A DNA stretch of 64,000 bases from NCBI RefSeq assembly GCF_036971445.1, contig NC_091471.1:191518001-191582000 (forward strand), written 5' to 3'. The position numbers and the translations under genes are program-made. The notes below the pieces were generated by a model. That model was not told where the DNA came from, searched no databases, and saw nothing but the letters and a program-made list of their open reading frames with translations. Source of the stretch: Narcine bancroftii. Its lineage: Eukaryota. Numbering within the stretch: position 1 is the first letter of the stretch; each line of letters opens with the position of its first letter. This document shows positions 11,393 through 55,418 of the stretch, in pieces.

Positions 11393-11639
11393 TCAGACAG
11401 AAGATTGTGGAGAAGTGAATATAAAAATCTAGGATGCTGCAGCAGGGAGGACATTTATTTCCAAAAATATACTTTATTCACAATAAATAATTTACAAAAC
11501 CAAAAAAAAGAGTTTTACATTTTTTCTCAATACACCGTTACCACCACTGTAGCACCTTGTCATTTCTACATGTTGTCATTAGACACACTTTTCCTAGACA
11601 AAAATTACTGACAAACAAGAAAAGAGTTAAAGTCTTTTT

Positions 11640-12329: not shown

Positions 12330-12468
12330 TAGTGATTCTCCACTTTTTTTTCCACTCACATACTACCTTAAGTAATCCCTTACTATCCATCCTGTGCCTT
12401 AGCACTTGGTAGGGAATTAGTTAAGGTGGTAGGTGAGTGGGGGGAAAAAAAACAGTTGAGATCCACTG
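12330..12468. mobile_element. hAT (Charlie-type) palindromic MITE
   Basis: Termini TAGTGATTCTCCAC / GTTGAGATCCACTG; 8-bp TSD CTCTACAG (12322-12329) / CTCTACGG (12469-12476); whole element folds back. Confidence 0.8.
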
Positions 12469-12699
12469 CTCTACGGCAACTGTACCAGACCGTGATGGAG
12501 CTGGCCAGGATGCTCTCGAAAGAACATCTGTAGAAAATTGAGAGGATGATGGCCTGTAACCTTGCTCGCCTTCCTGAAAAATGACTAGATGTTGTGTATC
12601 CAGGATAGGCCGCTTCTTAAGTGGAAGGGCATCCATTATTCCAGTGATTCTCAATATCTCTTGGCCAGTGGCACTGACATCTACCCTAATGAAATGCAT

Positions 12700-13690
12700 T
12701 GTGATGTTAGTATTGGAGTGAATCAACTCATATCTCAGGAAGGACCTGGACCTACTCCAGTTTGCCTATCATCACAGCATATGTCATCTCACTGGTCCAC
12801 CGGTCTGCATTAGATCACAAGATGATCCTTCAAGACAGAACAGTGTTCTACACCATCATACTAGCAAATCTCATGACCAAGATAAAGGAATTTGGACTAT
12901 GACCATCCCTCTGAACCAGATCCTCAATTTCCTCATCGGCAGTCCCCCATCAGTGCAGAATGGTAAACATCACCTCCTCTTAATTGACCATCAACATAGG
13001 AGTAACCCATGACTGCCTGCTTACTTCCCTGCTCGATTCCCTCTCCATCTATGACTGAAGACAGGTTCAGCTTCAATTCAATTTATAAATTTGCTGTCGA
13101 CATCACCAGGATTGGTTGAATAACTAGAAATGATGAATCGGAATGCAGGATGGCAATTGTGAATCTTTTTGGGTGGTGCCAGAACATCAATATGGCTCTC
13201 AGCTTCACTAGGACCAAGGATCTTATTGTTAATTTTTCAGAAGGACCACATACCTTCCTTCATTAATTGGACAGAGATGGAGGGAGACAGTATCTTCAAG
13301 TTCCTGCGAATGCATATTTTAGAAGAACCAGCACAATGAGGCAACAATGAAGAAACACCAATGGCTCTACTATCTAAGGAGTTTGAGGAGATAGGACCTC
13401 CCATCCATTGCCGATACCCATGCGAGGCCCCACCTCAAGGAGACAACCATCATTGTAAAGGACCCCCATCACCCTGATCACAATCTGTTTTCACGATTAC
13501 CTTTGAGCAGAAGGTACAGAACTCTGAAGATCAGCACCTCAAGGTTCAGGAAAATGTTCTTTCCAACAGCTGTCAGATTCTTGAACCTTCCCTTGTTTCA
13601 CTAATCATAGAGAGCTCTGACAGCACAAAAGGACTATCTGCACTATTATGTCACATTTTTTGCACTAGAATGACTGTGACTATCAGATAC
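12700..13690 (+). mobile_element. Rex1/Babar-like LINE relic (old)
   Basis: Decayed RT segments (DLLQFAY, IYKFAVDIT, WCQNIN, KDPHHP) with many stops. Confidence 0.65.
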
Positions 13691-15495
13691 CTCAAGGCTG
13701 TGTGCTCAGCCCACTCCTATTCACGCTAATGACCCACGACTGCATTGCCAGATCCAGCTCCAACAATGTCATCATGTTTGCAGATAACACAACAGTCGTT
13801 GGCCGCTGCAGAAAAAATGATGAGTCACACTCTAGAGAAGAGGTGGAAAATATCATGAAATGATGCAAGGGTAACAACCTGAATCTCAACATGGACAAGG
13901 TGAAGGAGTTGATCGTGGACTTCAGGAGAACCAAGAACGAGCACCTTCCACTACACATCAGCAACTATGTAATAGAGAGAGTGCAGAGCACCAAGTTCCT
14001 TGAAGTTCACTTAACTAGTGATCTATTGTGGAGATTCAACATCTTCACACTTGCCAAGAAGGTACAACAGCAATTGCACTTCCTGAGAAGAATGAAGCAG
14101 ATAAGGCTACCAGCCACCAATATGTCAACCTTCTATAGATGCTCTATCAAGAGCATACTGGCCAGCTGCATCACCATGTGGAATGGTTGCTATAGAGAAA
14201 TGGATTGGAAATCAATCCACAGGACCATAAAAATGGCAGAGATGATCACTGGAGTCTTCCTCCCCCCCCTCCCCCCATCATCATTGACATGATCTACCAA
14301 GATCATTGTCTGGAGGGCGCACAAAATCATTGAGGACCCCTTCCATCCTGCACCCAGCATCTTTCAGCTGCTCCCCTCGGAGAAGAGATACAGGAGTTTC
14401 AGAGCCAGCATGACTAGGATGAGGAACAGCTTCTACCCATGGGCAGTGAAAATGCCGTACAACCAAAGGAACTGGTCACACTAATCATCTGAGATTTTCA
14501 TTTGTACAAAGCAATATTTATTTATTTATTTTTATAAACAAAATACTTGTCCTGAATATGTACTATTTGTCTGTATATCTGAGTTTCTCATCATGAAACA
14601 ATATTTATGTATTTATTTGTATAGTTGAAATACTTGTCCTGCATATGTATTGTTTGCCTGTATGTGTGTTATGTCTGGTTGTATGCCTGCATGTTTTGCT
14701 CTGAGGACCTGTTGTGTGTGGAGGAAGTGTGGCCTCCCTGCCTGTCTGGAACGTGCATATTGTGAATGGTCACATGTCTGCCCCATCTGGAACCTATTCA
14801 GATGTGACATCACCTGTCCATTAAGGTTGGACCCCAGCCACCCATTAGTGCACACCTTGCCATTGGCTAATTTAAATCAGTGGGGTTATTATTAGCTAGA
14901 AGCACGGATTAAAACCGTATATAGAACCAGCACATGGTACATTCTTTCTCTCTGCTTTATGGTCTAAGACCTGGACTCTGCTCCATGCTAGGTCACTACT
15001 GTGGATGTCGCTGGAAGGGTTGCAGGTAAGGTGTGCTCTATACTGAAGCTGAGCCATGGTATTGTGATAGATCGATACTTTCAGTAACATATGTAAGAGT
15101 CCCTGTTTATACTGTGTGAGCGGGGTTGAATATAGGTTTACTATCGTCGGCGTACAACTGATTTCTGAGGTGAATATCTATATCGTCACTTACGTGAAAT
15201 AGTGTGTGTAGCGTGTGAGCAGGTCAATTATAAGTCTACTGTTATTGGAGTCTAACTGATATCCAAGGTGAATGCCTGTTCATGAATTAGTAATTATGCA
15301 CCATTTAACATTCTTCCTCTATTTGTTTCCCCTGTGTTAATGAAGGTTATGTGTGATTGAAACTCTTGTGTCCAGACTCATCTCTCTGTGAACCCACTGA
15401 ACCTGATACTCTTCCCAACGTGACAGGGCTGGAGAACACTGTTTCCTTGGGTTATACTTGTACACTCTGATGACAATAAACTTGACTTGATTTGA
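13691..15495 (+). mobile_element. Rex1/Babar-like LINE 3' half, interrupted by a solo LTR
   Basis: PQGCVLSPLLFTLMTHDC, MFADNTTVVG, KELIVDFRR; the 3' UTR resumes after 15430 and ends AATAAACTTGACTTGA. Confidence 0.8.
14710..15425 (+). mobile_element. Solo LTR (716 bp)
   Basis: TG...CA ends; splits the Rex1 UTR (GAGGACC|GGAGAAC, intact in the 33760-33960 copy); decayed 5-bp TSD GGACC/GGGCT; CCATTGG and TATATA promoter-like motifs. Confidence 0.65.
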
Positions 15496-15659
15496 AATGT
15501 AAAAACTGGAGGATAACTGGGGAAAGGACACAACCATGCGAGGACTAAGGGGTGAATTATGTTTGAAGTCAGAGGAAGTGGATCAGTGTCAAAGCCAATG
15601 GGGGGCTTTTGCAGGCATTACCACCCGTAAACAAGCTATTATGACCCACCAACCCATGT

Positions 15660-16012
15660 TAGCATGGCCAGATGTCTGGTTTTAGGCTAAACAGCTGTCC
15701 TCCATTTGTGGCATCCTGGGCCATGTTTCTTGCACACAGGTGCTAATTCCAGCTGACGCATGTGCAATGGATTGGAGTACCAGGGCCACCAGCATCACAT
15801 CCCCCTCCCTCTAACAGAAGTAATGCTAGTGGCCCCGGTACTCCAATCCACTGTGTATTTCCCAGCTGGCACTAGTGTCTGCACGCACTAAGAAACATGG
15901 CCTATGGATGCCAGGATGCCTCATTTAACATGGTAAGTGCCTCCCCAACCCCCCTCCCAACACATTGCTGAATGAGTTTTTGTACAGCAAATTGTGCCAC
16001 CCTGTTACCCTA
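15660..16012. mobile_element. Probable hAT-Tip100-type MITE with ~200-bp foldback
   Basis: Left end TAGCATGGCCAGATGTC, right end TGTTACCCTA; inverted arms across 15709-15913; no TSD seen. Confidence 0.45.
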
Positions 16013-16074
16013 ATGTCCTCAGTTAAGACTTGTTCTGGCACCGACCCTGAAGAGGATGAGGTATAGAAGAGGTT

Positions 16075-16300
16075 TTTTAATTTATACAATCAGCACAGTA
16101 ACAGGCTATTTTGGTCCATGCTGCCCAATTTACACTCCATTAATCTACACCCCAGGTACGTTTAGAAGGGTGGGAGGAAACCAGAGCCTACTGCTAAAAC
16201 CCACACAGATATGGGGAGAATGTACAAACTCCTTACAGATAGTTGTCCCATCCAGATCTCTGGGATTGCACTAACCAACTATGCCAACTGTGCCACCCAA
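16075..16300 (-). mobile_element. tRNA-derived V-type SINE
   Basis: Family core in reverse (GGGTGGGAGGAAACCAGAGC..GGGGAGAATGTACAAACTCCTTACAGA). Confidence 0.75.
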
Positions 16301-16309
16301 CAGTATAGA

Positions 16310-16700
16310 ATATTAGAGCAGGGAAATGATGCTCAGGCTTTATAAGGCACTGGTGAGACCTCATTTGGTGTATTGCAAGCAATTTTGCGCTCTTCATTTA
16401 AGAAAGGATGTGCTGACTTTGGAGAGGGTTTAGAGGAGGTTCACAACGATTATGCTGAAAATGAAAAAGCTATCATATGAGGAATGTCTGATACCTCTTG
16501 TCCTTTACTTGTTGGAATTTTGGATTACTTTGTACCAGCATTCACCAAGATAAATCGCATGGTGAAGAGTAAGTGCAGTGTTGGGTGTGATAATGTATCA
16601 GGGCACTTTGAGATCAAGAAAAAAGTGGTGCTAGGTCTTTTGAAAACTATTAAGAAGGATAATTTCCCAAGGCTGTATGGAATATATCTCAGTTAATCAA
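16310..16700 (+). mobile_element. Old CR1 fragments
   Basis: MMLRLYKALVRPHL..LERV and a second piece (AFTK..VLGLLKTIKKDNFPR) homologous to CR1 ORF2. Confidence 0.6.
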
Positions 16701-17068
16701 GAATGTCTGCAGACACTGTGATTCTAGTTTAATGCTCAGAAGTGCTGGTGAAACTCAGCATGTCACGTGGCATTCATAAGAAGCAAAGATATATAACCAA
16801 CAATTATGGGCCTGAGTCCTTTGTCAAGGAAGAAGCAAAAAGCAGACAGGCACCTGAATAAAAAGGTGGAAGAGGGGGTAGGGCGAGGAGCACAGGCCAA
16901 CAGGCAAGAGGTAATAGATGGATATAGGTGAGTGTAAAGGTTAAAACCTGTTGTTTTTAATTTTGTGCCTGTCTCTTTAAGAGAATTATTGTTTGGGAAA
17001 TTATCCTTCTTAATAGTTTTCAAAAGACCTAGCACCACTTTTTTCTTGATCTCAAAGTGCCCTGATAC
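16595..17068. repeat. Perfect 76-bp inverted duplication
   Basis: 16595-16670 is the exact reverse complement of 16993-17068 (checked base by base). Confidence 0.95.
16705..16935 (-). mobile_element. Penelope-like terminal repeat fragment
   Basis: AAGTGCTGGTGAAACTCAGCA.. motif shared with the other Penelope termini. Confidence 0.6.
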
Positions 17069-17429
17069 CATAAAGCTTGATGAAATATGTCATAATATGT
17101 CATAATATCCGCCCAGGCTAATGGCTTGCCCTTTCATTCTACAAGATGTGAAGGAATCGTGAGCATGAGAATTTTTTCTTTGAACCTGTGTCTCTTTAAA
17201 GTTTGTGTATTGCTTTAAAAGCTTTTGTATCTCTTTCAGCTAGTATCTCTACATATGTTTGTATCATACAGTAAATACTTTGTTATTCATCATTATGAAA
17301 GACAATCTGAAGCTATGTAAAATGTTTATCTGTTTATCCATTTTATCAACAAATTAAAAGTACATAAAATAGCAGCCCCAGAGTTTGATTTGTTGGATAA
17401 AACAGATCTAAATTTGAGATATCGCAGCT

Positions 17430-18105
17430 CATACTTTGGAAGATGATACTCTGAAATTTGGATATGTTAGAATAAGGAAAGAGTCCTCTATAGTGGGAGA
17501 GGGCAGAAGAGACAAAAACTGAGGGAGGGGTAGCTCTCTGAATGGAAAGGGAAGAGTGTTGAGCGTTGAAGGAAAGGAGACGGGGTAGGGAAAGCGGCAG
17601 TGACAGGGGAAGGGTGAAATGGAAACCGGAGAAGTTGATGTTAATGCCATCTGGTTGGAGAGCCATATTGGGTCCCATTCCTCCAATTGTGGGTGGCTTT
17701 GGTTTGGCAGTGCATGGATAGACATGTTGGTGTGGGAATGGAGCATGGTATTTAAAAGGTTGGCCACTGGAAGGTTCCCGCTATTGCAGTGGAGAGAGTT
17801 AAGCACTAATGAAAAATCTCCCAGTTGGCATCTGGTTTCTTTAACTTACAGGAGGCCACAACAAAACCACCAGATGTAGTAGATAACACCTGCAGATTAA
17901 CAAGTGGAGTGTTGCTTCACTTGGAAGGACTGTTTGGAGTCCCGAATGGTGGTGAAGGAAGAAGCATAGGTGCAAGTGTAGCATTATAGGCATATACAGG
18001 GTTAGGTGCCAAGGGGACGATTAGTTGGAAGGGATGAGTGTAGTGGTTCTGGAAGAAGGTGGAGAAAGGAGTAAAGGGAAGATGTGTCTTATTGAGGGAT
18101 CATGT
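17430..18105 (-). mobile_element. Penelope-like element relic (GIY-YIG endonuclease region)
   Basis: Minus-strand translation KQSFQVKQHSTC..VIYYI..CGLL..ETR..LPVAN..HSHTNMS, typical of the PLE GIY-YIG domain. Confidence 0.75.
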
Positions 18106-19118
18106 TTGAAAAAAGAGTGAGTGTCTGGAATGGGTTGTCAAAGTTAATGGTGGAAGCAGAAATGATTGTAATGTTTAAGAAGCTTTTGTATAGATACATG
18201 AATGTACAGGGAATATAGGATATGTTTCATGTGCGAGCATGAGCTTAATTTGGGCACCATGTTCAGCACAGATATTGTGAGCCAAAGAGCCTGTTCCATT
18301 TCTATGTTTGAATTGTGATTACTACCCCCAAAATTATCACCCACTGAAAACACAAAGTGAAAATTAATTTAAAAAAATTCTTCAAATGGAGCCCTTTTTC
18401 TCGATGGACTTTCTGTGTAGTTGCCCCAAAAAAACCTTGCTTGGATATACTTTACAAATTCCTTCCCATTTAAAATCCCTCATACTGAAGGACAGTTGAA
18501 ACCACCCCCCCAACAATTGTGCTTCTTTTGCTTTTATACTTCTCTTGCAATTTGTCTAAGCATCTGTTGTTGCTGACTGCTGGGAAGTCTTTAAAATAGT
18601 CCTAGCTGAGCGTTAAGTTCTACCTTACTTGTCTTCCAAGGCATCCTCCCTGTGTACTGCATTGTTATTTCCCCCTAATCAATATTACAATGCTCCTCCT
18701 CATTTCTCTCCCTATCCATCATGCATAAAACTTCACCTTGAATCGTTGAACTGCCAGTGCCTTAATTCAAACATATTTTTGAGATTAGAATAATTTTGCT
18801 TAGTAATAATATTTCTGCATCAGGGTAATGGACAAATTATGCAGGCTGTGACCAATGGTTCTAAAGAGTATTTCTGTATTAATTTGTAAGTCTTGGATAA
18901 TGTGTTCCCACAATAATTTCAGGACAAACTGTGGAACAGATGTTTTAAAAGAAAATAATCCCAAAGATTCTGCCTCTGCATTTTTGTGCCTGGCAGACAA
19001 AGGGCAGAATTGGAGTTGCCAGATTGTGGATTCATTAGTAAATGATTTAAGTTAAAGATTTAATAAATGATTTTATAATTTAGGACTTTTAAAATTATTT
19101 TTAGTAATATTAATAGTC

Positions 19119-19386
19119 TGCGGCAGCGCACATCCTCATGGTCAACCGGCCCTGCTTGTATCGCCATGTGGCAGGGCAGCCATGGGGAAATGGCATCGTC
19201 AGAGGTTTCTCTCTGACTCCAGCATCCCTTCCAGCGCATGCCCTGGGCAGCGATTATGAGGCCACAATTCACCAGGTTGACTGAACTCATGCTACCCTTA
19301 AAGGGACGTGCTGAATTTGAATAAAAACAGTCGTTAACGACCCTCAACATGGTGGCTGTGTTTCTTCCACTGCTCACACCACCACA
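19119..19386 (+). mobile_element. Solo LTR of the Gypsy family at 44380-48063
   Basis: 268 bp, TG...CA, reverse complement of the LTRs at 44380-44646 and 47797-48063; AATAAA near 19320. Confidence 0.9.
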
Positions 19387-19399
19387 CTCCTGCCAATTC

Positions 19400-21560
19400 A
19401 GGGTTCAGATTTGACTCTTGAGATTCTTTTTCTCTGCAGGTGAGGCAGAATTACCACTTATTGGTAGTGCAAAAAAAACTGTACACAACATACACATGTA
19501 AACAAATAAAGAAATGTAAACACACTGACAGTGCAATATAGAGAGGAAATTAAAAAAAAGTGCAAAAATAAGAGTCCTTAAATAAGTCTGTGATTGAGTT
19601 TATTGTTGAGGAGTCTGATTATGGAAGGGTAGCAGCTATACCTGACCTGGTGCTATGAGTCCTGTGGCATCCACACACTCTTTTCTGATGGTTGCAGAGA
19701 GAGTAGAGCACATGCTAGGTGGTGTGGATCCTTAATGATTGCTTCTGCTCTCTGACAGCTGCGTTCTCTGTAGATGTTCTCAATGGTCGGGAGTGTTTTG
19801 CATGTGATGTCCTGGGCTGTGTCCACTACCTTTTGCAAGGCTTTTCGACTGAGGTATTAGAATCCCCATACTAGGCCATGATGCAGCTGATCAGCACATT
19901 TTCCACCACACGTCTGTAGAAATTTGCCAGGGATTCTGATGTCATATTAAATCTCCACAAACTTCTGAGGAAGTAGAGGTGCTGACATTCTTTCTTCGTG
20001 CATTTGTTCATTGGGTTTAGGAAAAATCCTCCAAGATAGTAACTCCCAAGAACATAAGTGTGCTTTCCCTCTCCACCTCTGATTTCCCCCATGATCATTG
20101 GATCATATATATCTGGTTTTCTCTTCCTGAAGTCAGCAACCAGCTCATTGATTTTGGTAACGTTCATTGCGAGGTTGTTGTTGGTGCACCATTCTGCCAA
20201 GCTTTCTATCTCCCTCCCATATGCTGACTCAATGCCCCTTTTTATACAACCCACTACTATGGGATTGTCAGCAAATTTGTGGTGGTGATGGTGTTGCCAA
20301 ACCGAGTCACACAGCCATAGGTGTAAGGTGAGTCGAGCAGGGTGCTAAGAACACAGCCCTGTGGTGCTCCAGTACTGATGAAGATGGTGGAGACCACTGT
20401 TTGTGGTCTGGAGGTGAGGAAATCAAGAATACAATTATACAGTGGGATGTTGATAAAATCACAACAGGGTGGGGGGAATGAGGAAGTTGGCTAAACTGTA
20501 GGTAGACCTAGGGGCTCGTATAGTGTAGTCAGGCTTTGCAACATGATAGGAAAACAGTAGAAGAAATAAATTAGCAAAAAGCTGACACACAAAATATGTC
20601 AGAGCAATGAAGATGGCAGCAACATCTGAGAGAACAATAGAGCACTAATCACCTGCGCTGACTGGCACCCTGAGACTTTGCATATGCGAGAAAGTAGCTA
20701 CAGTATGGATAACCTGTGGTCATATGATTGGTAAAATATTATACAGCAAGCATACTAACTCAGAGATACTTTGTATATGTGAGGAACTAATTGAATATTA
20801 AATATTAAAAGATGAAGTCTTTTATGACTGGTGTAACATTATACAGTATGCTATGGATCAGGATAAAAGAAAATGTATTATAGCTGTTCGGGGGGACTTT
20901 TGTCACCGACTCCAGAAATGGCATTTCAGTACTAGTGGTGAATGAAAGTGACCCGATCTGCAGATTAACAAATGATCCAACGAAGACTCTAGTTGAAGTC
21001 AGAAATTTCGTGCGAGCACCCTGTGGACCTGGAATCCATGGGGTGGGGGGGGGGGGGTTTGAGACCCAGGTCTTGGAGTTTGCAATTAGCTTTAAGGGGA
21101 TGGTGGTGTTAAATTCCAAATGTTAGTTAATAAGGAATATCCTGGTGTATGTATCTTTGTTGTCCAGGTGTTCCAGAGCTTTGTGCAGAGCCAGTGAGAT
21201 GGCATCCATCATAGACCTGTTGCTATGATAGGTGAATTGGAACAGATCCATGTTGCCGCTCAGGCAGGAGCTGATGTGCCAGCCTTTCAAAACAATTCAT
21301 TGCTGTTTATATAAGTGCTACTGGTCAATAGTCATTTAGGCAGGTTACTACACTCTTCTTGGGCACTGATACGATTGATGCCTGTTTGAAACAGGAGGGT
21401 ACCACACCCTGCCAGAGTGAGATATTGAAGATATCCATGAATTCACTGGCAAGCTAGTCAGCACAGAATTTTAATACTCGGCTGGGTACTCCACCTGGAC
21501 CAGATGTTTTCCTCAGATTCACTTTCCTGAAGGCAGTCTGCAGGTGATCCTCTAATATGG
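19400..21560 (-). mobile_element. Rex1/Babar-like LINE relic, interrupted by a solo LTR
   Basis: Minus-strand PQGCVLSTL, AEWCTNNNL, ELVADFRK, IIKDPHH; continuity TGGG|..GAGACCCAGG across the insertion. Confidence 0.8.
20448..21038 (+). mobile_element. Solo LTR (591 bp), ERV-like
   Basis: TG...CA ends, 5-bp TSD TGGGA/TGGGG, ATTGG box and GATAAAA..TGTTCGGGG arrangement; interrupts Rex1. Confidence 0.6.
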
Positions 21561-21814
21561 ACAGGAGAGGATCACTAATGCCTTTCAATACATTCAATGT
21601 CTGTTGATGTCTTTGGCTGTGCAATTATAGCAGAGAACAGGATGGTGCCTGATGTAAAATCTAATTAGAAAGCAAGAAATCAACTAATAGAAAGGTAATA
21701 AGGAAACATTTAAAAGGAGTGTTTGAGGAAAGATCATTTAACTTAGAAATCTGATATGGGAACATTCAGTGCAGTGCAGTGGAAAGCTGATTCTTTATTT
21801 GGAATAAAACGATG

Positions 21815-22326
21815 AGCGTGCAAAGAAGGTTTACAGAGGATGCAAAGGTTTACAAAAATGTTGCTTGGATTGCAGTATCTTGAGTTTGGAGAAAGATTGA
21901 GTAGACTGGGACTTTATTCACCAGAGTGTAGATGGTTGAGAGGGGATTTGATAGAGGTATTTAAAATTATGAAGGGAATAGATAGAGTAGATTTGAATAG
22001 GCTCTTTCCCCTGAAGGTAGGGGAGATTGGAACAAGGGGTCATAAGTTAAGGGTTAGGGGGCAAAACTTTAGGAGTAATATAAGAGGATAGTTCTTCACT
22101 CAGAGAATGGTGGCTGAGTGGAATGATCTAATGGAAGAAGTAGTTGTGGCAGGGACAATCCTGTCATTTAAGAGGAGGTTAGATGAGTAAATGGATGTGA
22201 GGGGGTTGGAGGATTATAGGCAAGGGAGAGGGTAGGTGGAACTAGTGGAGTTTCACGTAAAACGCTGCAGACTAGAAGGGCCGATATCGCCTGTTTCCAT
22301 ACTGTAAATGTTTATATGGTTATATG
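21815..22326 (+). mobile_element. CR1 3' fragment
   Basis: QRFTKML..LRGDLIEVFKIMKG..TRGHKL; tail GCCTGTTTCC..(TATATGG)n. Confidence 0.85.
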
Positions 22327-23102
22327 GAAATGTAGATGGTCCTTGAGACTCTGGTTTCCAGTGCATGTGGATGCTCATTCAGTACCTGATGTTTAGACTG
22401 GCAATAAAATGTCATTTTTGCTTGTGAAATGTTTATTTCAAGTGGCTCAGGTGAAGTTCACTGCTACTTCTATATTTTACATCTCCTTACAAAGGATACT
22501 GCCATGTTTATTCCAATGGGTGACCTGTAAAAGCTGGATCAAGACAACAAGAGTCAGAGGCAGGACAGAGACATGCACCAGGACTTAAAGAAGGAAGAGA
22601 AGAGATTACATTTGTGGATTTAATCCCATGTGAGTTTAAGGAGCCGATCAACAGTGATTAATCTATGCTATAATTCTCCCATGGTTGCTGATGGCAACAG
22701 CAGGCAGGTCACTGTTGCTTTCTAATCAAGGCAAATGATGTGTTATTTTCTGTAGTAGATGCTATTGGGATCATTTATGAACATTACAGACTTCCCAAGA
22801 TTCCAGGAATAAAAGATTGCACATGAAGTGCTCCAGCCTCTGCTTCAGAACCCAGTCTCCTTATGAATAGCTTTCACGTGTCCCTCTAAATCAGCTGCTC
22901 AGTGTCCCAGGATAGGAATGGGGGGGTTGGCTTTTCACACTTGACAATTCTTCACTGGGACACTGAATGCTTTCACACTTGCTAGTAGCTATCCTGGTTC
23001 TACCTTCAATTGGAAGTGCCAGATGACACAAAATGTAGCAGTGACGTTATCTCATTCTGTACAATGGCGGGCATCAGACAGATCACATTGGATGTCCTGA
23101 AG

Positions 23103-24530
23103 ATGTTTGAATCTATCCCTTGGCAATCAGGTCTTATCAACCTCCTTATCTGCAAATTGGTGCAAAGAGTAACTGGTTCTTAAAAAAAACAGTGGACATC
23201 TGAACTTAGGTGGCAGAATTTTAATGATATCTTGCATATAACCTCTGAAGTGTTTGAGGAGGAGAGTGTGGCCGAGCTGAGAGTCCGATGTTTTTAAAAA
23301 AAAAATGTGGTATCTTGAAAGAGTATATAATAGCAGAAGGATGTGGAAGAGGGAGACCCCTCAAGGACCTGTATTCTGTCTTTGAAAAATACAATGATGA
23401 CCAGTGGCTTAGGAATCTATGAATGTCTTATGCTATGTTTGATTTCATTGCTGGGATACTGGGGCCACACCTGAGGCTTAAGATCATGAAATTCATAAGT
23501 CCACTGGAACCCCGGGTCAGACTTGCAACTGCCTTGTGGTCGTATGGCACTCCTGGAGCATATCATTCTGTCAGTGTTCTTTTTGGAGTTGGTATCTCCA
23601 CTGTATTCACAGTGGTCAAGCAGGTGTCCGCAGTGGTGAAAAAGAACCTCATGCCACGTTTCTTAGGGCTGCTGTCTGGGAGTGTCTTCAGGAGACAATG
23701 GAGGCATTTGAAAGAAGGGGTGGTTATTCAATGTGTGCTGGTGCCATTGATGGCACACATATGCCCATATGCCACAATCAAAAAGGGTGGCACTTCATTG
23801 TTCTGCAAGTTGTTGTCAACTACAACTAATAAAGTTGATATTTCCATTAATTTCAGTTTTCCTCACCTGAAAATGTAAGCATTCTGTTATCTAGCTTTCA
23901 CCCTCTGTATTTCCCTCTTCACAGATGTGTATGTGGGTTGGCCAGGTCGCACCCATGATGCTCGCATTCTTATCAACTCTCCCATTTACAGAATGGCCAA
24001 TGATGCAGGCAGTCATCTATGCCCCAGTGACATAATTGAAAATGGCAAAGCGTAATGATGCTTTAACATGTACATGTTATCATCTAAAGTGTTCGATGTG
24101 ACACATGATATTGGTGAGTTGACACTGCCATTTTTCCATTCTTCTCTGAGTCACCCATACATTCTCAATGATGCTATCACAGACATCCAGAAATGTTGGT
24201 GTGGAAATACCTGCACAGTTGGTTGGGGACCCTACCTACCCACTGAGAAAATGACTGATGAAGGGATTCATGCAACATCACCACTTTGATCACAGCTAAG
24301 CACACATTCATCTTCAGTCTGATCTCTGCCAGAATGGTTGGGGAGAATGTCTCAAAGGATGCTGGAGGGGCCTGTCGAAATGATTAGATATTGATACCAC
24401 CTTGGTGTCAGAGGTTGTTGTTGTCTTCTGTACCTTGCATAATAACTGTGAGCTTAACAAGGAGGTCTTCCTGGAAGAGTGGCAGCGTGAAGCCTCTGAT
24501 CTCCCTCCACCATATGTGATGCCATTATGA
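23103..24530 (+). pseudogene. Harbinger DDE transposase (HARBI1-like family), intron-containing, disrupted
   Basis: RLATALW..G..Y..V..LFGVGISTV, GAIDGTH, VGWPGRTHDARIL, LVGD, LKGCWR, CTLHNNCE; acceptors TTCACAG (~23923) and TCACAG (~24182); start approximate. Confidence 0.85.
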
Positions 24531-24899
24531 TAGTCCTGTGTGGGATTGAAGATAATAACTGACTCATTTCCATTCAAAGTAAATAAAACTGTATTGCTTG
24601 TCTTGGAACATAATGCAACTGTAAAATCTAAACTTTATAATAAAACCTGTTTAATAACCGTTGGAACATCATGTGCAACCATTGTGTAAACATGGACAAA
24701 AAAATTGTGAGTAAAAATGGTGCAAGAATTTTCTTCAATAAAACTCTAACATTTGGAGGAAACATCTTTGGCATCTCTTAACTCTCAAAAACCTTTAACT
24801 TTAGTTCAACACCATGCAGAATATTTAAATGGAACAACTTCAGCAATGAACACATGTGAAACTTTTCATTGGGTATCTCCATCCTCTTTTTCCAGCAGG

Positions 24900-26259
24900 T
24901 GAGTGGAGGAGTTGGGATAATGGCCAATGAGGGGGTGTTTAGCTGAACCCTCAGCATCAACCATGAGAAACCAAGAGTGCCTCGTTTGAGGTGGGGTGAT
25001 AACGGTTGGCCCATAGGGAGGGTTCAGTATTGGAGCTGGATGATAGCAGTGGGAGGGGGAAGGTTGTGTAGGGTGATAAGAGGGAGGAGAATGGAATGGG
25101 GAGTGTTGACGGAGATGCAAGGAGGGAGGGATATGCAATAAGGCTTGTGGCATCATGGTGGCAGATGATGGTTGGAATGAGGGGGAATCTGGTGAGGGGG
25201 GGGAGGCAGGAGGCCTGCCGCTGGAGGAAGGAGACTGAATGGTGGAGAGCCAAGGTTGGACTCCATAATTACACAATGGATGAAGCCTTATGTCAGTTAT
25301 CAACAGTGCGAATCCATCATTTTCAGCCTGTTGGTGGCAGGTTTCTGATTTGCACTCTGTTGCTCCTGCATTATCCCCCTGCAACATCTCTGCATGTCTT
25401 TCCCTTCAGTGCTATTTTCTTTCCTGTTCAATCATGTCTATTTCCAATATAAGCCTATGCATCACAACTGCCTCCTCCTGCCTCTCTGTGGGCTTATGTT
25501 TCCGCCTCCTGGACAGCGGTGAGGCACATATGTAAATTAAATGCCACATCTTGACCATTGATTCAAACCAGAAGTGACATTGGGGGAAAAAATAAATTAA
25601 GGGTCTTACCATCTCCCAGTACAGCAGGTAGTGTGATTCCTGTGGTTTTTTTTTTGCCTGTTGACTGGTCAGTTGCAGTCTGCTGGTCAGCTGAAGTAGT
25701 GCCGGGGATGAGGCAGAGGGAGAGGCTGAGGTACTGGTGGGGGTGGGAGGGAGAGAATGTACTAGGAGTGGATGAGGGACAGGGGTGGTTGATGGATATG
25801 TGACAGACGAGGTACAAGGGGCATCCAGTTCCTGCATCTCAACTTCCTCCTTCTCCTCCTCCTCCTGCTCCTCCTCCTCAGTTTGCAAACTAGATTCAAG
25901 GGATTGCACAGCAGTCCCACTCCTAGCCTGCAGGTTGCCTACAAGGGTGAGTCATGTAGCTTGCCTGCTTGTACCCCATATGTCATATGCCAGGTTAAAA
26001 TGAGGCCAGTCCCAACAGTCTGCACTACTCCTCCCATTATGGTCCATGACCTGGTGAAGCCTCCTTTTTAATGTCTTTAACTTGTTAATGACCTGTTTTT
26101 TTTGTATCTCTGATATCCCATTCCCCTGAGCTTTGATTTAATGCCCTCATAAAATCATCCATCTTTAATTGTGCCCATTAATTCATATCCAGTTCCCTCC
26201 TCCAGGCTTCGGGTGAGGAGTTGTTGCACCTCCCTATCTCCCCAGTTTGCAGAAGACAT
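24900..26259 (-). pseudogene. Harbinger Myb/SANT-like (trihelix) DNA-binding protein, disrupted
   Basis: MSSANWGDREVQQLL..KQVINKLKTLKRR..WPHF..IWG, then acidic and Pro/Ser-rich tracts; donor GTAAGA at 25609; 3' end approximate. Confidence 0.75.
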
Positions 26260-26804
26260 TTTTAAATTTTTTGTTTGTGTAAATGACTCTTTTCACCGGT
26301 TTAAACTCTTTTTAAAGTCACACCAAATAACATCTGATTAAAAAAAAATCAATTTTTAAATAGCTCTCTCCACCTGCCTGCTATTTCAATATAATACTGA
26401 CTTCACAGGAGGAATGGAGGAGGTGTGTCTGCGTTACCTTCGGTCTCCAGCACTTCTACAGCACACTTCCCTCAGGGTTTAACATGCTCACGCAAAAATA
26501 GCATTATTTAAATCCCACAATGCAATTGTTCATTCTACACTTACAAAATTGCACCAGGGGTCAAGGCAGTCAATCCCCGTCGTGAGATGACATGATCGGA
26601 CGCTGGCATTGAGAAGATGCCAATTGGCCAATTGGCTGTTAATTCCTGGGACCACTTGCAAGTGTGAAAGGGCCATTTATAGTAGGGAGAAAAAAAGCAA
26701 TTGTAACGATAGAGATTCTCCACCTTTACTTTGCTTCACTTACCTTCATAAAAGGTCAGAAGACGGATTGACTGCTTGAACTCGCTCTATCTTCCATCCA
26801 CCTA

Positions 26805-27229
26805 GGGGGGTACGCTCAGAGGTGGAGTGAAATCACTCCACCTTCTGCATATAAGGATTGCCGCTGAAAGTGGTTCCAAACAGGAATTTAAGATGATTGA
26901 AATCTTGCTGACAGCCCAATTCCCCACTGTGCTGTCAGAGTGGCCGGTGGAGCTGTCAGGCTGCGCTCGCTCATGCCACCCTGCTCACTCAAGCCAGTCC
27001 CTCACTGCGCTCTCTTACACCACCCACACCTGATGGGGCTGTAAGGCAGCGGCATGGTGTGGAGGGACTGTCAGGCAGTGGGATGGTGGGGCTTGTGCAA
27101 GGTGGCTACTGCTGTGCTGCACATCCCACCCACTTTTGCTCTGAAAAGCCGACACACTGCTCTGGGCTAGATACATTTAAAAAAAAACCTGAGCGGGCAA
27201 TAATGCGGTTTTTGTGCATAAAAACCCCC
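26805..27229. mobile_element. Possible MITE
   Basis: TA|GGGGG...CCCCC|TA ends, GC-rich interior, hairpin AGGTGGAGTGA-AA-TCACTCCACCT. Confidence 0.35.
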
Positions 27230-27399
27230 TATGAGTCACTGAACACACAAGTTATAACCAACCATGAAAATAAATCATTCATAGGAAATTATATATTTTT
27301 TTTTACGGAGAATTTTATGACTTTTATTCTTAGCCATTCCAAATGCCTTTCATGTTATAGGTGCCACACTGCTTAAGGGATACATTTTGCTTAATTAAA

Positions 27400-27646
27400 C
27401 TTAAATTTAGACATACAGTATGGTAACAGGCCCTTTCATCCAAAGATCCTGTAGTGCCCAATTTCACCCAATTGGCCTACATCCCCCATAAATTTTGAAG
27501 AGTGGGAGGAAACCAGAGGACCTGAAGAAAACCCACTCAGACATGGGGAGAACGTACAAAGATTTTACAGACTGCAGCGGATTAGAATCCTGGTCGATGG
27601 CACCGTAACAGTGTTGCACTAACCGCTATTCGAACCATACTGCCCG
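27400..27646 (-). mobile_element. tRNA-derived V-type SINE, full length
   Basis: Head TAGCGGTTAGTGCAACACTGTTAC on the minus strand, family core, (TAAATT) tail. Confidence 0.85.
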
Positions 27647-27653
27647 CAAAAAG

Positions 27654-27744
27654 CGACTTCAGTGGGACTCAAACCCCTAACCTTTGAATAGCTGAAACAC
27701 CCATCTAGAGAAGGCCAACACATTTTCCAGTGCACCACAGAGTT
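27654..27744 (-). pseudogene. Intron-containing tRNA-Arg(TCT) pseudogene
   Basis: Minus strand: 37-nt 5' half AACTCTGTGGTGCACTGG..TTGGCCTTCTC, 18-nt intron, 36-nt 3' half ATTCAAAGGTT..GAGTCCCAC..GTCG, then CTTTTT; colinear with vertebrate tRNA-Arg-TCT, about 17/73 mismatches by hand. Confidence 0.75.
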
Positions 27745-28702
27745 CACTGTACTCAGTGATGATAGCTGACTATCATTTTTATTATTGGCATCAGACTACC
27801 AGGAACCTTGCAGAAAGTAATGACACAGCTCCCCAATCTATCCTGCTCCAAGCATATTCTGCAGTATCTCTAGAGAAGTTTCTACATCTCTGCTGCCTAC
27901 TACACAAGCCACAAACTGCACTTGAGAATCTCCAACAGGAGTCGGAGAATGAACTGGAGGGGAAATCGTCCATCAGTGGCAGAGTTCGAGGATTCTGACA
28001 GGCTGTGCTCACTCCAGGCCTTCTTTCAGCCCCATGAACACTGCACAGAGATTGAGGGGGGGAAACACAGGCTGCTGCTACACAAACAAATAGTGCAATT
28101 CATTTGCCAAGGGTCAAAGGAGAAATAGTGGTATTTTGTCTTTCGTATACAGTAAGCCTCCTACGCCACAAACATTGACTGCAGTGAACTATGCAGTGAT
28201 CATATACAAACTGATGGTTGCTGGTCAATGTCTCATCCATGAGCAGAAATGCGATGAGTCATGTATGCATCATCACTGAGCAAAGGAGGTTGTTAGCATG
28301 TCTCTTTAACCTTTCAAGAGTCCACAAATGTGAGTGCTACTAACAGCTACTTAACTGCCGCTGCTTCATAGTAAATAAGATGAATAGCAGATGACCATTT
28401 TGTCAAAAGTAACCTGTGGTAATGCTCATTTATCAGCATTACAAAGATAAATTATTTACTCTTATTAAGGGCAATCTTAAAAATAGCAACGGGTGTGAAT
28501 GAAGTGTAAACACCTGAGAAAAATGTAACGTCAATCTACAAAGTAATTCATCTACTCATGAAGGTTGGAATCCACAATTGCTTGATTTGTACTAGATCAC
28601 ATAGCTGGATAGGTGTGCTAATTGATGTTTTTTTCTCCACAAATTATTCCGAAAAAAAATAGCATACTTCACTGCGGTGTGTCCCGATGTGGTCGTTTAT
28701 AC

Positions 28703-28952
28703 AGGGCACTTTCACACAGCCTTCCTGTGTGGTGGAGTTTGTCAGTAGAGGGCGGGATCGTCGTATCCATTAAGCTTGTTTCTTACGGAGTGGCTGCGGT
28801 CATTTTATACTGCAGCCGCTCCGTAAAAATGTGTAGGGGTCCCAGTGGAAAATTTACAGGATGGAATTTACATAATAAATTCCGCCTCGATGTTTTTATG
28901 CAGCTACTGAAGAGCAGAGATTTTCTGCTCCATGGCTGTGTAAAATATTCTC
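28703..28952. mobile_element. Harbinger-type MITE
   Basis: Termini GGGCACTTTCACACAGCC / GGCTGTGTAAAATATTC; internal hairpin TTACGGAGTGGCTGC..GCAGCCGCTCCGTAA. Confidence 0.55.
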
Positions 28953-29089
28953 TCAAAAAATGTCAGCTGAAGAATCAGCATCCAAAGTTGCAGTCCTATC
29001 CTGAACCAATGGTAACTGCAATGTCAACATTGCACGTAGCTTGGACTTTTTCATCCATGCCGATCACTTCATAAACAGAGGTGAGTGAT

Positions 29090-29217
29090 CTATCTGTAAG
29101 GAGTTTGTACGTTCTGACCATAACTGCATGGGTTACCTCCGTGTGCATCAGTTCTCTTCAAAATGTATGGGGGTTGTAGGTTAATTGGGTGGCGATGGCT
29201 TATGGTCTGGAAGGGCC
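29090..29217 (+). mobile_element. Partial V-type SINE
   Basis: CTGTAAGGAGTTTGTACGTTCT..TAGGTTAATTGGG..GAAGGGCC, truncated at the start of the direct repeat. Confidence 0.6.
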
Positions 29218-29730
29218 TCATCAGGCTAAATACTCTGTCACACATGACAATAAAAGAATTTTGAATCCTGAATCTTGAATCTTATTCCCTGATTTATTTT
29301 CTTTTTGGATCCTCTGCCCTTTGTCCAAAAGCTAATGCTGCATGTCTAAAAAAAAAGATATAATTTCAATACTGCTCCCATTGATAGGAGATCATGTCTG
29401 GAAGAGAAGATCACCTACGCAGACATCTAATCTAATAAACTGTTTCACCTAACTGGAGGCATCATTCACAAGATAGCAAAATGAACTGGATCCCTACATT
29501 TTGCAAGATGGGTACAGGATAATCAAAAGAATCAGTTTTAACCATTGCAAGTCCATTTGCTCTCTCCATATGCTACATTGTTGACTCTCAGAATCAGAAT
29601 CAGTTATTGCCGTGAACATGGTCACAAAATTTGTTGGTCTGTGTGGCTACAGAGACTATGGGAGCCCTGGAGTGACTCTGAGTGTCTAAATGCATCTAAA
29701 TGCAGATTAAATGCAATTTTGCATAATATT

Positions 29731-30739
29731 ACTTGTCTGTGAACTACTCTTTGCAGACGATGCCGCTTTAGTTGCCCATTCAGAGCCAGCTCTTCAGTGC
29801 TTGACGTCCTGTTTTGCGGAAACTGCCAAAATGTTTGGCCTGGAAGTCAGCCTGAAGAAAACTGAGGTCCTCCATCAGCCAACTCCCCACCATGACTATC
29901 AGCCCCCCCACATCTCCATCGGGCACACAAAACTCAAAATGGTCAACCAGGTTACCTATCTCGGCTGCACCATTTCATCGCATGCAAGGATCGACAACGA
30001 GATAGACAACAGACTCGCCAAGGCAAATAGCGCCTTTGGAAGACTACACAAAAGAGTCTGGAAAAACAACCAACTGAAAAACCTCACAAAGATTAGCGTA
30101 TACAGAGCCGTTTTCATACCCACACTCCTGTTCGGCTCCGAATCATGGGTCCTTTACCGGTATCACCTACGGCTCCTAGAACGCTTCCACCAGCGTTGTC
30201 TCCGCTCCATCCTCAACCTTCATTGGAGCAACTTCATCTCCAATATCGAAGTACTCGAGATGGCAGAGGCCGACAGCATCGAATCCACGCTGCGTTGGGT
30301 AGGTCACGTCTCCAGAATGGAGGACCATCGCCTTCCCAAGATCGTGTTATATGGCGAGCTCTCCACTGGCCACCGAGACAGAGGTGCACCAAAGAAGAGG
30401 TACAAGGACTGCCTAAAGAAAGCTCTTGGTGCCTGCCACATTGACCATCGCCAGTGGGCTGATATCGCCTCAAACCATGCATCTTGGCACCTCGCAGTTC
30501 GGCGGGCAGCAACCTCCTTTGAAGAAGACTGCAGAGCCCACCTCACTGTCAAAAGACAAAGGAGGAAAAACCCAACACCCAACCCCAACCAAGCAATTTT
30601 CCCTTGCAACCACTGCAACCGTGTCTGCCTGTCCCGCATCGGACTTGTCAGCCACAAACGAGCCTGCAGCTGACGTGGACATGACCCCTCCATTAATCTT
30701 CGTCCGTGAAGCCAAACCAAAAGAAAGAAAAAAAAAGAA
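29731..30739 (+). mobile_element. RTE-clade LINE, 5'-truncated copy 2 (more diverged)
   Basis: ORF 29711-30673 with LLFADD; 15-bp in-frame deletion (LLKIQLR to LR); tail GCCAAACCAAAAGAAAG; no TSD found. Confidence 0.95.
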
Positions 30740-36277: not shown

Positions 36278-37099
36278 TGTGGTAAATCACTGTAATGTAT
36301 AATTATCTGGTCAAGCATGCCTATTGGCTGGTTGCACTTGTGCCCCCCTCACCACCCCCCCCCCCCCGCCCCACAGGCTCCGGTATAAAGGTAACTATTT
36401 CACAGCCCCCTGCAACTCAGTGCAGTTCAACCAAACTGTAGGGATATGCTATTCTCAATTGAATTAAAGCCTATTGATTTCTCTTCAATTGTCTCCTGAG
36501 TATTTGATGCTGCTGGTGGAACGCTTCCACCAGCGTTGTCTCCGCTCCATCCTCAACATCCATTGGAGCGCTTACACCCCTAACGTCGAAGTACTCGAGA
36601 TGGCAGAGGTCGACAGCATCGAGTCCACGCTGCTGAAGATCCAGCTGCGCTGGATGGGTCACGTCTCCAGAATGGAGGACCATCGCCTTCCCAAGATCGT
36701 GTTATATGGCGAGCTCTCCACTGGCCACCGTGACAGAGGTGCACCAAAGAAAAGGTACAAGGACTGCCTAAAGAAATCTCTTGGTGCCTGCCACATTGAC
36801 CACCGCCAGTGGGCTGATAACGCCTCAAACCGTGCATCTTGGCGCCTCACAGTTTGGCGGGCAGCAACCTCCTTTGAAGAAGACCGCAGAGCCCACCTCA
36901 CTGACAAAAGGCAAAGGAGGAAAAACCCAACACCCAACCCCAACCAACAAATTTTCCCTTGCAACCGCTGCAATCGTGTCTGCCTGTCCCGCATCGGACT
37001 TGTCAGCCACAAACGAGCCTGCAGCTGACGTGGACTTTTTACCCCCTCCATAAATCTTCGTCCGCGAAGCCAAGCCAAAGAAGATTTGATGCTGCATCA
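36278..37099 (+). mobile_element. Solo LTR (~240 bp net) containing an RTE insertion
   Basis: TG...CA; perfect 5-bp TSD ACCTC (36273-36277, 37100-37104); ATTGG, TATAAA and ATTAAA motifs. Confidence 0.85.
36514..37083 (+). mobile_element. RTE-clade LINE, 5'-truncated copy 3
   Basis: ORF to ..SHKRACS*; 12-bp TSD ATTTGATGCTGC (36502-36513, 37084-37095). Confidence 0.95.
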
Positions 37100-53637: not shown

Positions 53638-55418
53638 TGTTACAAGATCAAACCTGGAACCACAAAGAAGGCATATCACACAGGGGTAAAGATGAACAAT
53701 TACTTTATTAACAAAAAAATTCACCTTCAAACTTTAGTTCAAAATCTCCCCCTTTTATAACAATGCCCACTGGTTACTATGCAAATCTCTATAACAGTGT
53801 AAAACTAATAAATTCCCCAGCCTAAATATAACATATTTAATCAAAGTTTAAGCTACACTTCCAACCAGCCCACAGAAACACTTCTTTTCTTTGGCTTGGC
53901 TTCGCGGACGAAGATTTATGGAGGGGGTAAAAAGTCCACGTCAGCTGCAGGCTCGTTTGTGGCTGACAAGTCCGATGCGGGACAGGCAGACACGATTGCA
54001 GCGGTTGCAAGGGAAAATTTGTTGGTTGGGGTTGGGTGTTGGGTTTTTCCTCCTTTGCCTTTTGTCAGTGAGGTGGGCTCTGCGGTCTTCTTCAAAGGAG
54101 GTTGCTGCCCGCCAAACTGTGAGGCGCCAAGATGCACGGTTTGAGGCGTTATCAGCCCACTGGCGGTGGTCAATGTGGCAGGCACCAAGAGATTTCTTTA
54201 GGCAGTCCTTGTACCTTTTCTTTGGTGCACCTCTGTCACGGTGGCCAGTGGAGAGCTCGCCATATAACACAATCTTGGGAAGGCGATGGTCCTCCATTCT
54301 GGAGACGTGACCCATCCAGCGCAGCTGGATCTTCAGCAGCGTGGACTCGATGCTGTCGACCTCTGCCATCTCGAGTACTTCGACGTTAGGGGTGTAAGCG
54401 CTCCAATGGATGTTGAGGATGGAGCGGAGACAACGCTGGTGGAAGCGTTCTAGGAGCCGTAGGTGGTGCCGGTAGAGGACCCATGATTCGGAGCCGAACA
54501 GGAGTGTGGGTATGACAACGGCTCTGTATACGCTTATCTTTGTGAGATTTTTCAGTCTCTTCAATCTGAGGCGCCTGCAAGCTCACACCAAGACACAAGA
54601 GAAACTTGTCCGTGAACTACTCTTTGCAGATGATGCTGCTTTAGTTGCCCATTCAGAGCCAGCTCTTCAGCGCTTGACGTCCTGCTTTGCGGAAACTGCC
54701 AAAATGTTTGGCCTGGAAGTCAGCCTGAAGAAAACTGAGGTCCTCCATCAGCCAGCTCCCCACCATGACTACCAGCCCCCCCACATCTCCATCGGGCACA
54801 CAAAACTCAAAACGGTCAACCAGTTTACCTATCTCGGCTGCACCATTTCATCAGATGCAAGGATCGACAATGAGATAGACAACAGACTCGCCAAGGCAAA
54901 TAGCGCCTTTGGAAGACTACACAAAAGAGTCTGGAAAAACAACAGAAACACTTAGACACAAAACAAACACAAAACTCACAAAAACTTCGATCTCAACTGA
55001 AGCAAAGATCATAAACAAAATTCAGTTTGTTTGGTAAACTGAACCCAAAATATCTTTGCGAGAGAGAGAGAAAGCACAAAATTCAAAATTGTCTTGTGTT
55101 GCTTGCAGAGAGAGGAACAACTGGCTTGGTCTGGATCCTTCTGACTGCCTTCGGAATGTTCATCCTTTTTGAAATCCCAACATTCTAAACTGCCCTCCAG
55201 ACCATGACTCATGCTCTGGGCCTTCTTCTACTCCACAGCACCCCCAGTGGTGGTTTATCATCCAAGTCCAGAAATTTTTAGATAATTTTCTGCACAATCT
55301 CATTCCGTCTCCCACTCTCTCAGCAGTCCACCTTCACCTTGGCTCTCTAAGGCAAACTGTCACTTTTTAACATAAAACCTCTCAATACATAGGCCAATAC
55401 ACACAGAACTCTGTAACA
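53638..55418. mobile_element. Solo LTR (~710 bp net) containing an RTE insertion
   Basis: TGTTACA...TGTAACA termini; 4-bp TSD AAGT/AATT; sits in a minus-strand Rex1-like relic. Confidence 0.75.
53884..54941 (-). mobile_element. RTE-clade LINE copy 4 with 5' inversion
   Basis: 3' part on minus (53884-54556), 5' part on plus (54553-54941); 12-bp TSD ACAGAAACACTT (53872-53883, 54942-54953). Confidence 0.97.

What the first reader, a model, noticed from the sequence alone, without database searches (positions are those of the whole stretch)
53872..54953. Twin-priming 5' inversion in an RTE-clade LINE
Seen: one insertion with a perfect 12-bp TSD. The 3' part is on minus and the 5' part (~390 bp) is inverted. 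The inverted piece ends at ..GGAAAAACAAC next to the TSD, which in copy 1 lies 2-4 nt upstream of where the non-inverted piece starts (ACTGAAAA). The internal junction shares a 4-nt microhomology CAGT (54553-54556), and the first AC of the TSD matches the element. Established: this geometry defines twin priming, best described for mammalian L1. Inference: an RTE-clade element in a non-mammalian vertebrate uses the same pathway.
Basis: partly seen in the sequence, partly recalled or inferred. Interest (0 to 1): 0.7.

Follow-up and report, generated by a model that had tools for sequence, protein, structure and literature searches.

The report
Twin-primed inversions in a ray RTE
A young 1.06-kb copy of a single-gene jumping element in a cartilaginous fish sits with its front 391 bases flipped inside one clean insertion scar, and 7 of 75 sampled copies of its family are flipped the same way, likely by the "twin priming" route described mainly for mammalian L1.

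Summary
There is one insertion with a perfect 12-bp TSD. The 3' part lies on minus, the front 391 bp are inverted, 2-4 nt are lost at the breakpoint, and the junction shares 4 nt. Nine of nine paralogues of the host solo LTR carry the site once. The element is a young single-ORF APE-RT LINE with the RTE-type Tn-TA target signature; the host is likely a ray.

The inversion is a family habit: 7 of 75 copies in 1.4 Mb of arbitrarily placed blocks, and 28 of 196 resolved copies overall. Inverted copies show twin-priming hallmarks:
- a TSD in 24 of 28 (20 of 11-12 bp), against 45 of 168 truncated copies;
- primer-end microhomology of 2 nt or more in 17 of 24;
- breakpoints within 35 nt in 22 of 28;
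- no non-inverted part under 553 nt.

Read support for the junction was inconclusive. Eight literature searches found no report of RTE inversions, but the key papers of 2001, 2008 and 2009 were not held. This scan has already noted the same thing many times, in this genome and in others. Verdict: a known mechanism in another LINE clade.

The parts
53872..53883 (.). 12-bp TSD next to the element's 3' tail (first-nick side); reads AAGTGTTTCTGT in element sense
   Evidence: paralogues carry the site once
53884..53892 (-). short A/G-rich 3' tail (...AAAGAAAAG) after GCCAAGCC; no poly(A)
   Evidence: same tail type across the family
53884..54556 (-). non-inverted 3' part (reference nt 2587-3259, counted from L071:3187): end of the ORF and 3' UTR; inferred first cDNA
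   Evidence: 5 differences from L071 in 670 nt
54553..54556 (.). inversion junction with 4-nt microhomology CAGT (ACTG in element sense)
54553..54943 (+). inverted 5' part, 391 bp (reference nt 2194-2584), RT-domain coding sequence; inferred second cDNA
   Evidence: 1 difference from L071 in 391 nt
54942..54953 (.). 12-bp TSD at the element's 5' side (inferred second primer); its first two bases AC are shared with the element
54954..54967 (-). RTE-type Tn-TA target signature: T at -1 (54954) and TTT at -12 to -14 (54965-54967) before the A that starts the TSD
   Evidence: family-wide profile; signature described in PMC13295347 (passages)
53638..53883 (.). left part of the host repeat, a solo LTR of about 0.7 kb beginning TGTTACA
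54942..55418 (.). right part of the host solo LTR, ending TGTAACA; its 4-bp flanks match 3 of 4 here and 4 of 4 in L009

Best explanation
This is one TSD-bounded insertion of a young single-ORF RTE-type LINE whose front 391 bases are inverted, likely made by twin priming, and such inversions recur across the family. Inferred steps: (1) The endonuclease nicks at T|A about one helical turn from a T run, and reverse transcription starts on the A/G-rich tail. (2) The other strand is cut 12 nt away before the first cDNA is finished. (3) The freed 12-nt 3' overhang pairs with the same RNA by its last two bases just ahead of the first cDNA, and primes a second cDNA of 391 nt. (4) The two cDNA ends anneal through 4 nt and are repaired. 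Shown directly: the structure, the single pre-insertion site in paralogues, the microhomologies and the family statistics. Inferred: the order of events and the priming itself.
For: Locus. Family frequency: 7 of 75 resolved copies in 28 arbitrarily placed 50-kb blocks are inverted (9.3%, 95% CI 3.8-18.3%); 7 of 43 among copies whose non-inverted part is 550 nt or longer; 6 of 25 among TSD-bearing copies. In the two 3'-end search sets, 17 of 87 copies are inverted, focal copy excluded. TSDs: an exact TSD of 9 bp or more in 24 of 28 inverted against 45 of 168 truncated copies (p=4e-9); 23 of 27 against 34 of 112 when length-matched and without the focal copy (p=3e-7). TSD length is 11-12 bp in 20 of 24 against 16 of 45. 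Primer-end microhomology of 2 nt or more in 17 of 24 (null 0.16, p=3e-9). Junction microhomology of 2 nt or more in 15 of 27 (L206 left out as it lies in the tandem leader; p=3e-6). The two pieces meet within 35 nt on the RNA in 22 of 28, against about 1.7% by chance. The inverted piece starts upstream of the non-inverted start in 28 of 28. The non-inverted part is under 550 nt in 0 of 26 inverted against 55 of 144 truncated copies (the length-selected set left out). Both classes share the same target signature.
Against: No read bridged the junction (inconclusive) and no allele without the insertion was seen at this locus. The first 16 blocks held only 1 inverted copy in 39, so the frequency is loosely bounded. 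Six of 28 inversions have large gaps (125-2363 nt). One (L077, 15 nt) is nearly all an inverted duplication and fits fold-back as well. Four of 28 have no exact TSD of 9 bp or more, and 6 of 24 have no primer-end microhomology. The 9-of-12 match between this TSD and the RNA at the breakpoint (p=0.008) is not general: only 3 of 24 copies reach p<0.1 and the median p is 0.57. With this copy's own C>T variant the match is 8 of 12.
Confidence: 0.88

Rival explanations
1. Host-repair route: the first cDNA stops, and a repair polymerase (snap-back or templated end joining) copies element sequence in the opposite direction before joining it to the target.
For: Snap-back junctions to antisense sequence are described for R2-driven insertions (PMC11371274, passages). 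L077 is a 15-nt near-complete inverted duplication, L177 has 16 extra nt at the junction, and 12 of 28 inversions overlap the non-inverted part by 1-23 nt.
Against: Snap-back can only copy what the first cDNA already holds. Here the 391-nt piece lies wholly upstream of the non-inverted start, and in 28 of 28 copies the inverted piece starts upstream of it. Short duplications are also part of L1 twin priming (17%, median 22 bp; 10.1101/2024.08.27.596794, passage).
Confidence: 0.06
2. A collinear 5'-truncated copy inserted first, and its front part was inverted later by recombination or repair.
For: No intermediate allele could be looked for. Microhomology at both ends would also fit end joining.
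Against: One breakpoint would have to fall exactly at the TSD edge and leave the TSD intact, here and in 23 other copies. Inverted copies keep TSDs more often than truncated ones, not less. There are no inverted repeats at the breakpoints beyond 2-4 nt.
Confidence: 0.03
3. Two independent insertions in opposite orientation at one site.
For: The family is dense (about 54 copies per Mb) and regenerates its own T|A target.
Against: The inverted piece has no 3' end or tail and no TSD of its own. It ends 2-4 nt from where the other piece begins on the RNA; 22 of 28 do so within 35 nt.
Confidence: 0.01
4. Assembly artefact in a high-copy repeat.
For: The junction was not confirmed in reads.
Against: An assembler would not create a 12-bp duplication carrying a locus-private base, a Tn-TA signature, and the same pattern at 27 other loci with different breakpoints.
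Confidence: 0.02

Closest known systems
5'-inverted (twin-primed) mammalian L1 insertions. Model of Ostertag and Kazazian 2001 (not held; read as described in PMC2912911, passages and section 8, and in 10.1101/2024.08.27.596794, passages)
   Same: [quoted passage not shown] 30.9% of TSD-flanked human and chimpanzee L1 are inverted, against 6 of 25 TSD-bearing copies here (different TSD thresholds).
   Different: A single ORF with no separate ORF1 seen in the reference copy; no poly(A) tail; Tn-TA target instead of TT|AAAA; TSD of 11-12 bp instead of about 15; protein as far from L1 ORF2p as from R2; cartilaginous-fish host.
RTE-clade LINEs (Bov-B and relatives), as described in PMC6007223 (abstract, section 14, part 2 of section 11) and PMC13295347 (passages)
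   Same: TSD peak of 10-12 bp, TSD starting with A after a T, T run about one helical turn upstream, A-containing microsatellite-like tail.
   Different: Neither paper mentions inversions in its main text. The T run here sits at -12 to -14 rather than about -10. The closest named proteins are from amphioxus, a sea urchin and a carp (70-79% identity), not Bov-B.
One 5'-inverted zebrafish Nimb-2_DR insert in DT40 cells (PMC4245944, passages)
   Same: A non-L1 LINE with about 12-bp TSDs giving a 5' inversion.
   Different: A single engineered event in cell culture; here it is a recurrent genomic feature.
Snap-back 5' junctions of R2-mediated insertions (PMC11371274, passages)
   Same: Antisense element sequence at the 5' junction.
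   Different: Snap-back copies cDNA already made; here the inverted piece comes from upstream RNA.

Membership tests
Twin-primed 5'-inverted LINE insertion | Single insertion bounded by one TSD at an endonuclease site | tested here: met
   12 of 12 TSD, single site in 9 of 9 paralogues, Tn-TA signature
Twin-primed 5'-inverted LINE insertion | 3' part with tail in sense; 5' part of the same RNA inverted and abutting the 5' TSD | tested here: met
Twin-primed 5'-inverted LINE insertion | Breakpoints adjacent on the RNA (short deletion or duplication) | tested here: met
   2-4 nt lost here; within 35 nt in 22 of 28
Twin-primed 5'-inverted LINE insertion | Complementarity between the 3' end of the second-strand overhang and the RNA at the priming point | tested here: met
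   2 nt here, weak on its own; 2 nt or more in 17 of 24 family copies, p=3e-9
Twin-primed 5'-inverted LINE insertion | Microhomology at the junction of the two cDNAs | tested here: met
   4 nt here; 2 nt or more in 15 of 27
Twin-primed 5'-inverted LINE insertion | Structure present in raw molecules, with an empty allele at the locus | tested here: inconclusive
   Only short Logan unitigs; no listed record bridged the junction
Twin-primed 5'-inverted LINE insertion | Second cDNA made by the element's RT from the second-strand end | not testable with these tools
   needs a retrotransposition assay
RTE clade | Single ORF with APE endonuclease and RT, about 3.3 kb | tested here: met
   L071: open frame of 1150 codons (1066 aa region used); only Pfam Exo_endo_phos, Exo_endo_phos_2 and RVT_1 hit. 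The single-ORF criterion itself is recalled.
RTE clade | TSD peak of 10-12 bp and Tn-TA insertion signature | tested here: met
   Of 62 TSDs of 9-15 bp: T at -1 in 56, A at +1 in 57, T at -13 in 51; criterion from PMC6007223 and PMC13295347
RTE clade | Microsatellite-like 3' tail instead of poly(A) | tested here: met
   tails of AAG / AAAG units
RTE clade | RT phylogeny groups with named RTE elements | not testable with these tools
   No named RTE reference was returned or 61
L1 clade | Close ORF2p similarity, separate ORF1, poly(A) tail | tested here: not met
   69 bits to L1 ORF2p against 72 bits to an R2-type protein; no poly(A)

The most novel reading that the evidence does not exclude
An ORF1-less, non-poly(A) RTE LINE twin-primes at a rate approaching L1's (about 10% of all copies, about a quarter of TSD-bearing ones), leaving on the order of 10,000-30,000 inverted copies in one genome. 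The rate would then be set by an unprocessed 11-12 nt target overhang and a minimum first-cDNA length of about 550 nt, not by anything specific to L1 or to mammalian cells, and this would not yet be in print.
Probability: 0.5. Interest if true: 0.65.

Novelty: new member of a known kind. Interest (0 to 1): 0.5.

Why it matters
The literature read here treats 5' inversion as nearly confined to L1. PMC4245944 found it only for L1 in human cells, apart from one Nimb-2 insert. It proposed that a long overhang must reach the RT before host processing does. This family fits that proposal in a distant clade: inverted copies keep 11-12 bp TSDs, while most truncated copies have short TSDs or none. If the single-ORF anatomy holds, ORF1p and a poly(A) tail are not needed for twin priming. 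With about 180,000 copies extrapolated, the family would give a large natural data set on the timing of second-strand cleavage, an open step of LINE integration. The locus itself is a dead fragment with no sign of function.

Tried and rejected
Reads: two read-laying runs had only Logan unitigs and did not bridge the junction. The 'opposite strands 54556-54943' joint is simply the ordinary collinear family, not support for this locus.

Extended pairing: the TSD matches the RNA 9 of 12 exactly at the start of the non-inverted piece, the best of 1130 positions. This suggested annealing there followed by a slip over one CAAC unit. It is not general and is kept only as a possibility for this copy.

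Statistics: the first null for primer microhomology (0.08) was too low and was redone at 0.16. The first junction count (10 of 28) was thrown off by variants near the anchors and was redone.

Sampling: one genome search returned nothing. The first reference lacked the 5' leader and missed inversions such as blk166, L064 and L206; it was extended. The set is selected for long collinear copies and is not used for frequency.

Literature: PMC1716264, Kojima and Okada 2009, Ichiyanagi and Okada 2008, Ostertag and Kazazian 2001 and one further recalled id were not held. PMC5389967 and PMC3747384 name twin priming or inversion only in their reference lists. PMC13320814 has no passage on it. PMC2837659 and PMC4476161 (passages) treat twin priming for L1 only. 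The ESM Atlas and PDB gave no clade name. No supplements were read.

Full report
Observation. The region 53872-54953 is as described. The 12-mer ACAGAAACACTT stands at 53872-53883 and 54942-54953. Between the two copies, 53882-54556 is collinear with window copy 1 (9117-9791, 98.5%), element sense on minus. 54553-54943 matches the adjoining part of copy 1 on the opposite strand (391 bp, 99.2%). The pieces share CAGT at 54553-54556. The inverted piece ends 2 nt before the non-inverted start if the AC shared with the TSD is counted as element, and 4 nt if not. The two halves differ from the intact copy L071 at 5 of 670 and 1 of 391 positions, so the insertion is young.

Single event. The flanks are two halves of a repeat of about 0.7 kb with TG...CA ends, a solo LTR by its termini and 4-bp flanks. 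Nine of nine paralogues examined (of 40 hits listed) run straight through and carry the site once. All nine read A at position 8, where both TSD copies here read C. The duplication was therefore made from this locus's own target. Swapping flanks between copies gives a TSD of 9 bp or more in 1 of 600 trials. Reads were inconclusive: only Logan unitigs were available, and none listed bridged the junction.

The element. L071 holds a full-length copy with one open frame of 1150 codons carrying APE endonuclease and RT, preceded by a GC-rich tandem leader. It scores alike against L1 ORF2p and R2 proteins (about 59-72 bits), so it is not L1-like. Its nearest named relatives are from amphioxus, a sea urchin and a carp. 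Among 62 TSDs of 9-15 bp, T precedes the TSD in 56, A starts it in 57, and T stands at -13 in 51. That is the Tn-TA signature described for RTE-clade LINEs (PMC13295347, passages; PMC6007223, abstract and sections). The 10-12 bp TSD peak also fits RTE (PMC4245944, passage). A tree with named references could not be built. All named homologues of another LINE ORF in the window (1424-2950) are from cartilaginous fishes, the best from rays.

Family survey: sample. I took 28 blocks of 50 kb at round coordinates on large contigs. I added the hits of two 3'-end searches (extended), the 30 loci (selected for long collinear copies), and the window with 80 kb of flank. After de-duplication there were 200 3'-anchored copies. 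Four ran off a locus edge and were dropped (one of them, L030, is inverted), leaving 196, of which 28 are inverted, including the focal copy. Inversions shorter than 13 nt are missed by design.

Family survey: frequency. In the blocks, 7 of 75 copies are inverted (9.3%, CI 3.8-18.3%): 3 of 28 at 98% identity or more and 4 of 47 below. That is 7 of 43 among copies of 550 nt or longer and 6 of 25 among TSD-bearing copies. The first 16 blocks gave only 1 of 39. The two search sets gave 17 of 87 without the focal copy; when length-matched, this is not significantly different from the blocks (p=0.25). A density of 54 per Mb extrapolates to about 180,000 copies.

Hallmarks. Exact TSDs of 9 bp or more occur in 24 of 28 inverted and 45 of 168 truncated copies. 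A further 25 of the 123 remaining truncated copies have signature-anchored TSDs of 6-8 bp (chance 1.5%). TSD length is 11-12 bp in 20 of 24 inverted against 16 of 45 truncated copies. Primer-end microhomology of 2 nt or more occurs in 17 of 24, and junction microhomology of 2 nt or more in 15 of 27. Breakpoint gaps lie within 35 nt in 22 of 28; 12 are overlaps and six gaps are 125-2363 nt. No inverted copy has a non-inverted part under 553 nt, whereas 55 of 144 truncated copies are under 550 nt. For this copy the TSD also matches the RNA 9 of 12 at the breakpoint, but this is not general.

Mechanism (inferred). The first nick is at T|A, with priming on the A/G-rich tail. A second nick 12 nt away follows while the first cDNA is still growing. 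The intact overhang pairs internally by its last bases and primes a second cDNA, and the two cDNA ends then anneal through a few bases. The length floor suggests that the second cut or priming happens only after about 550 nt of first-strand synthesis. The TSD contrast suggests that inversion needs an unprocessed overhang, as PMC4245944 (passages) proposed for L1. Snap-back cannot supply sequence upstream of the first cDNA's end and fits at most L077. Later inversion, double insertion and misassembly fail on the TSD and breakpoint data.

Known context. 30.9% of TSD-flanked human and chimpanzee L1 are inverted (PMC2912911, section 8). In tumours, 66% of inverted L1 carry deletions and 17% duplications (10.1101/2024.08.27.596794, passage). 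PMC4245944 saw inversions only for L1 in human cells, plus one Nimb-2 insert. Eight searches found no report of RTE inversions. The library lacks most subscription papers, including the 2001, 2008 and 2009 papers most likely to bear on this, and no supplements were read, so absence from print is not shown.

Earlier scan notes. Notes of this scan report the same pattern many times in this genome (33 notes fit the look-up, one giving about one copy in six) and in other genomes. They are unchecked and are not counted as support.

Verdict. The feature is real, likely twin-primed, and a recurrent property of this RTE-type family. It is a known mechanism in another clade and host. Interest 0.5.

Noticed in passing
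window 9117-10258 (-), 29731-30729 (+), 36519-37082 (+): Three more copies of the family, all plain 5'-truncated; 13-bp and 12-bp TSDs on the first and third, none found on the older 92% copy.
   Followed up: yes
L071:2270-3190; L072: The full-length element has a GC-rich leader of about 169-bp tandem monomers, and a 15-bp tandem repeat at the start of the ORF whose copy number differs widely between L071 and L072.
   Followed up: partly
L071:3188-6385: The protein is 70-79% identical to proteins named from amphioxus, a sea urchin and a carp, which hints at horizontal transfer among aquatic animals; not tested.
   Followed up: no
L064, L206, block L166-L170: Inverted pieces drawn from the 5' leader or UTR with gaps of 259-2363 nt, so full-length RNA was the template even for short copies.
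   Followed up: partly
L055, L063, L075, L189, L025: Truncated copies with long duplications (20 to more than 30 bp) instead of the usual 11-12 bp.
   Followed up: no
L177, L077, L176, block L091-L095: A 16-nt insert at an inversion junction, a 15-nt fold-back-like inversion, and 10-13 nt extras between TSD and element that may be inversions too short to call.
   Followed up: partly
window 53638-55418: The host is a high-copy solo LTR of about 0.7 kb (961 first-look candidates) with 4-bp flanking duplications; family not identified.
   Followed up: partly
window 1424-2950 (+): A 509-codon open frame of another LINE (endonuclease region; the CR1-like label is recalled), with homologues in rays and sharks.
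   Followed up: partly
window 16595-17068: A perfect 76-bp inverted repeat with 322 nt between the arms.
   Followed up: no
L096-L100, L106-L109, L116-L120: Blocks of long degenerate tandem sequence with no RTE copy.
   Followed up: no
L187, L188; L005, L006: Identical locus pairs 9-17 kb apart, probably local duplications; L187 and L188 were counted once.
   Followed up: no
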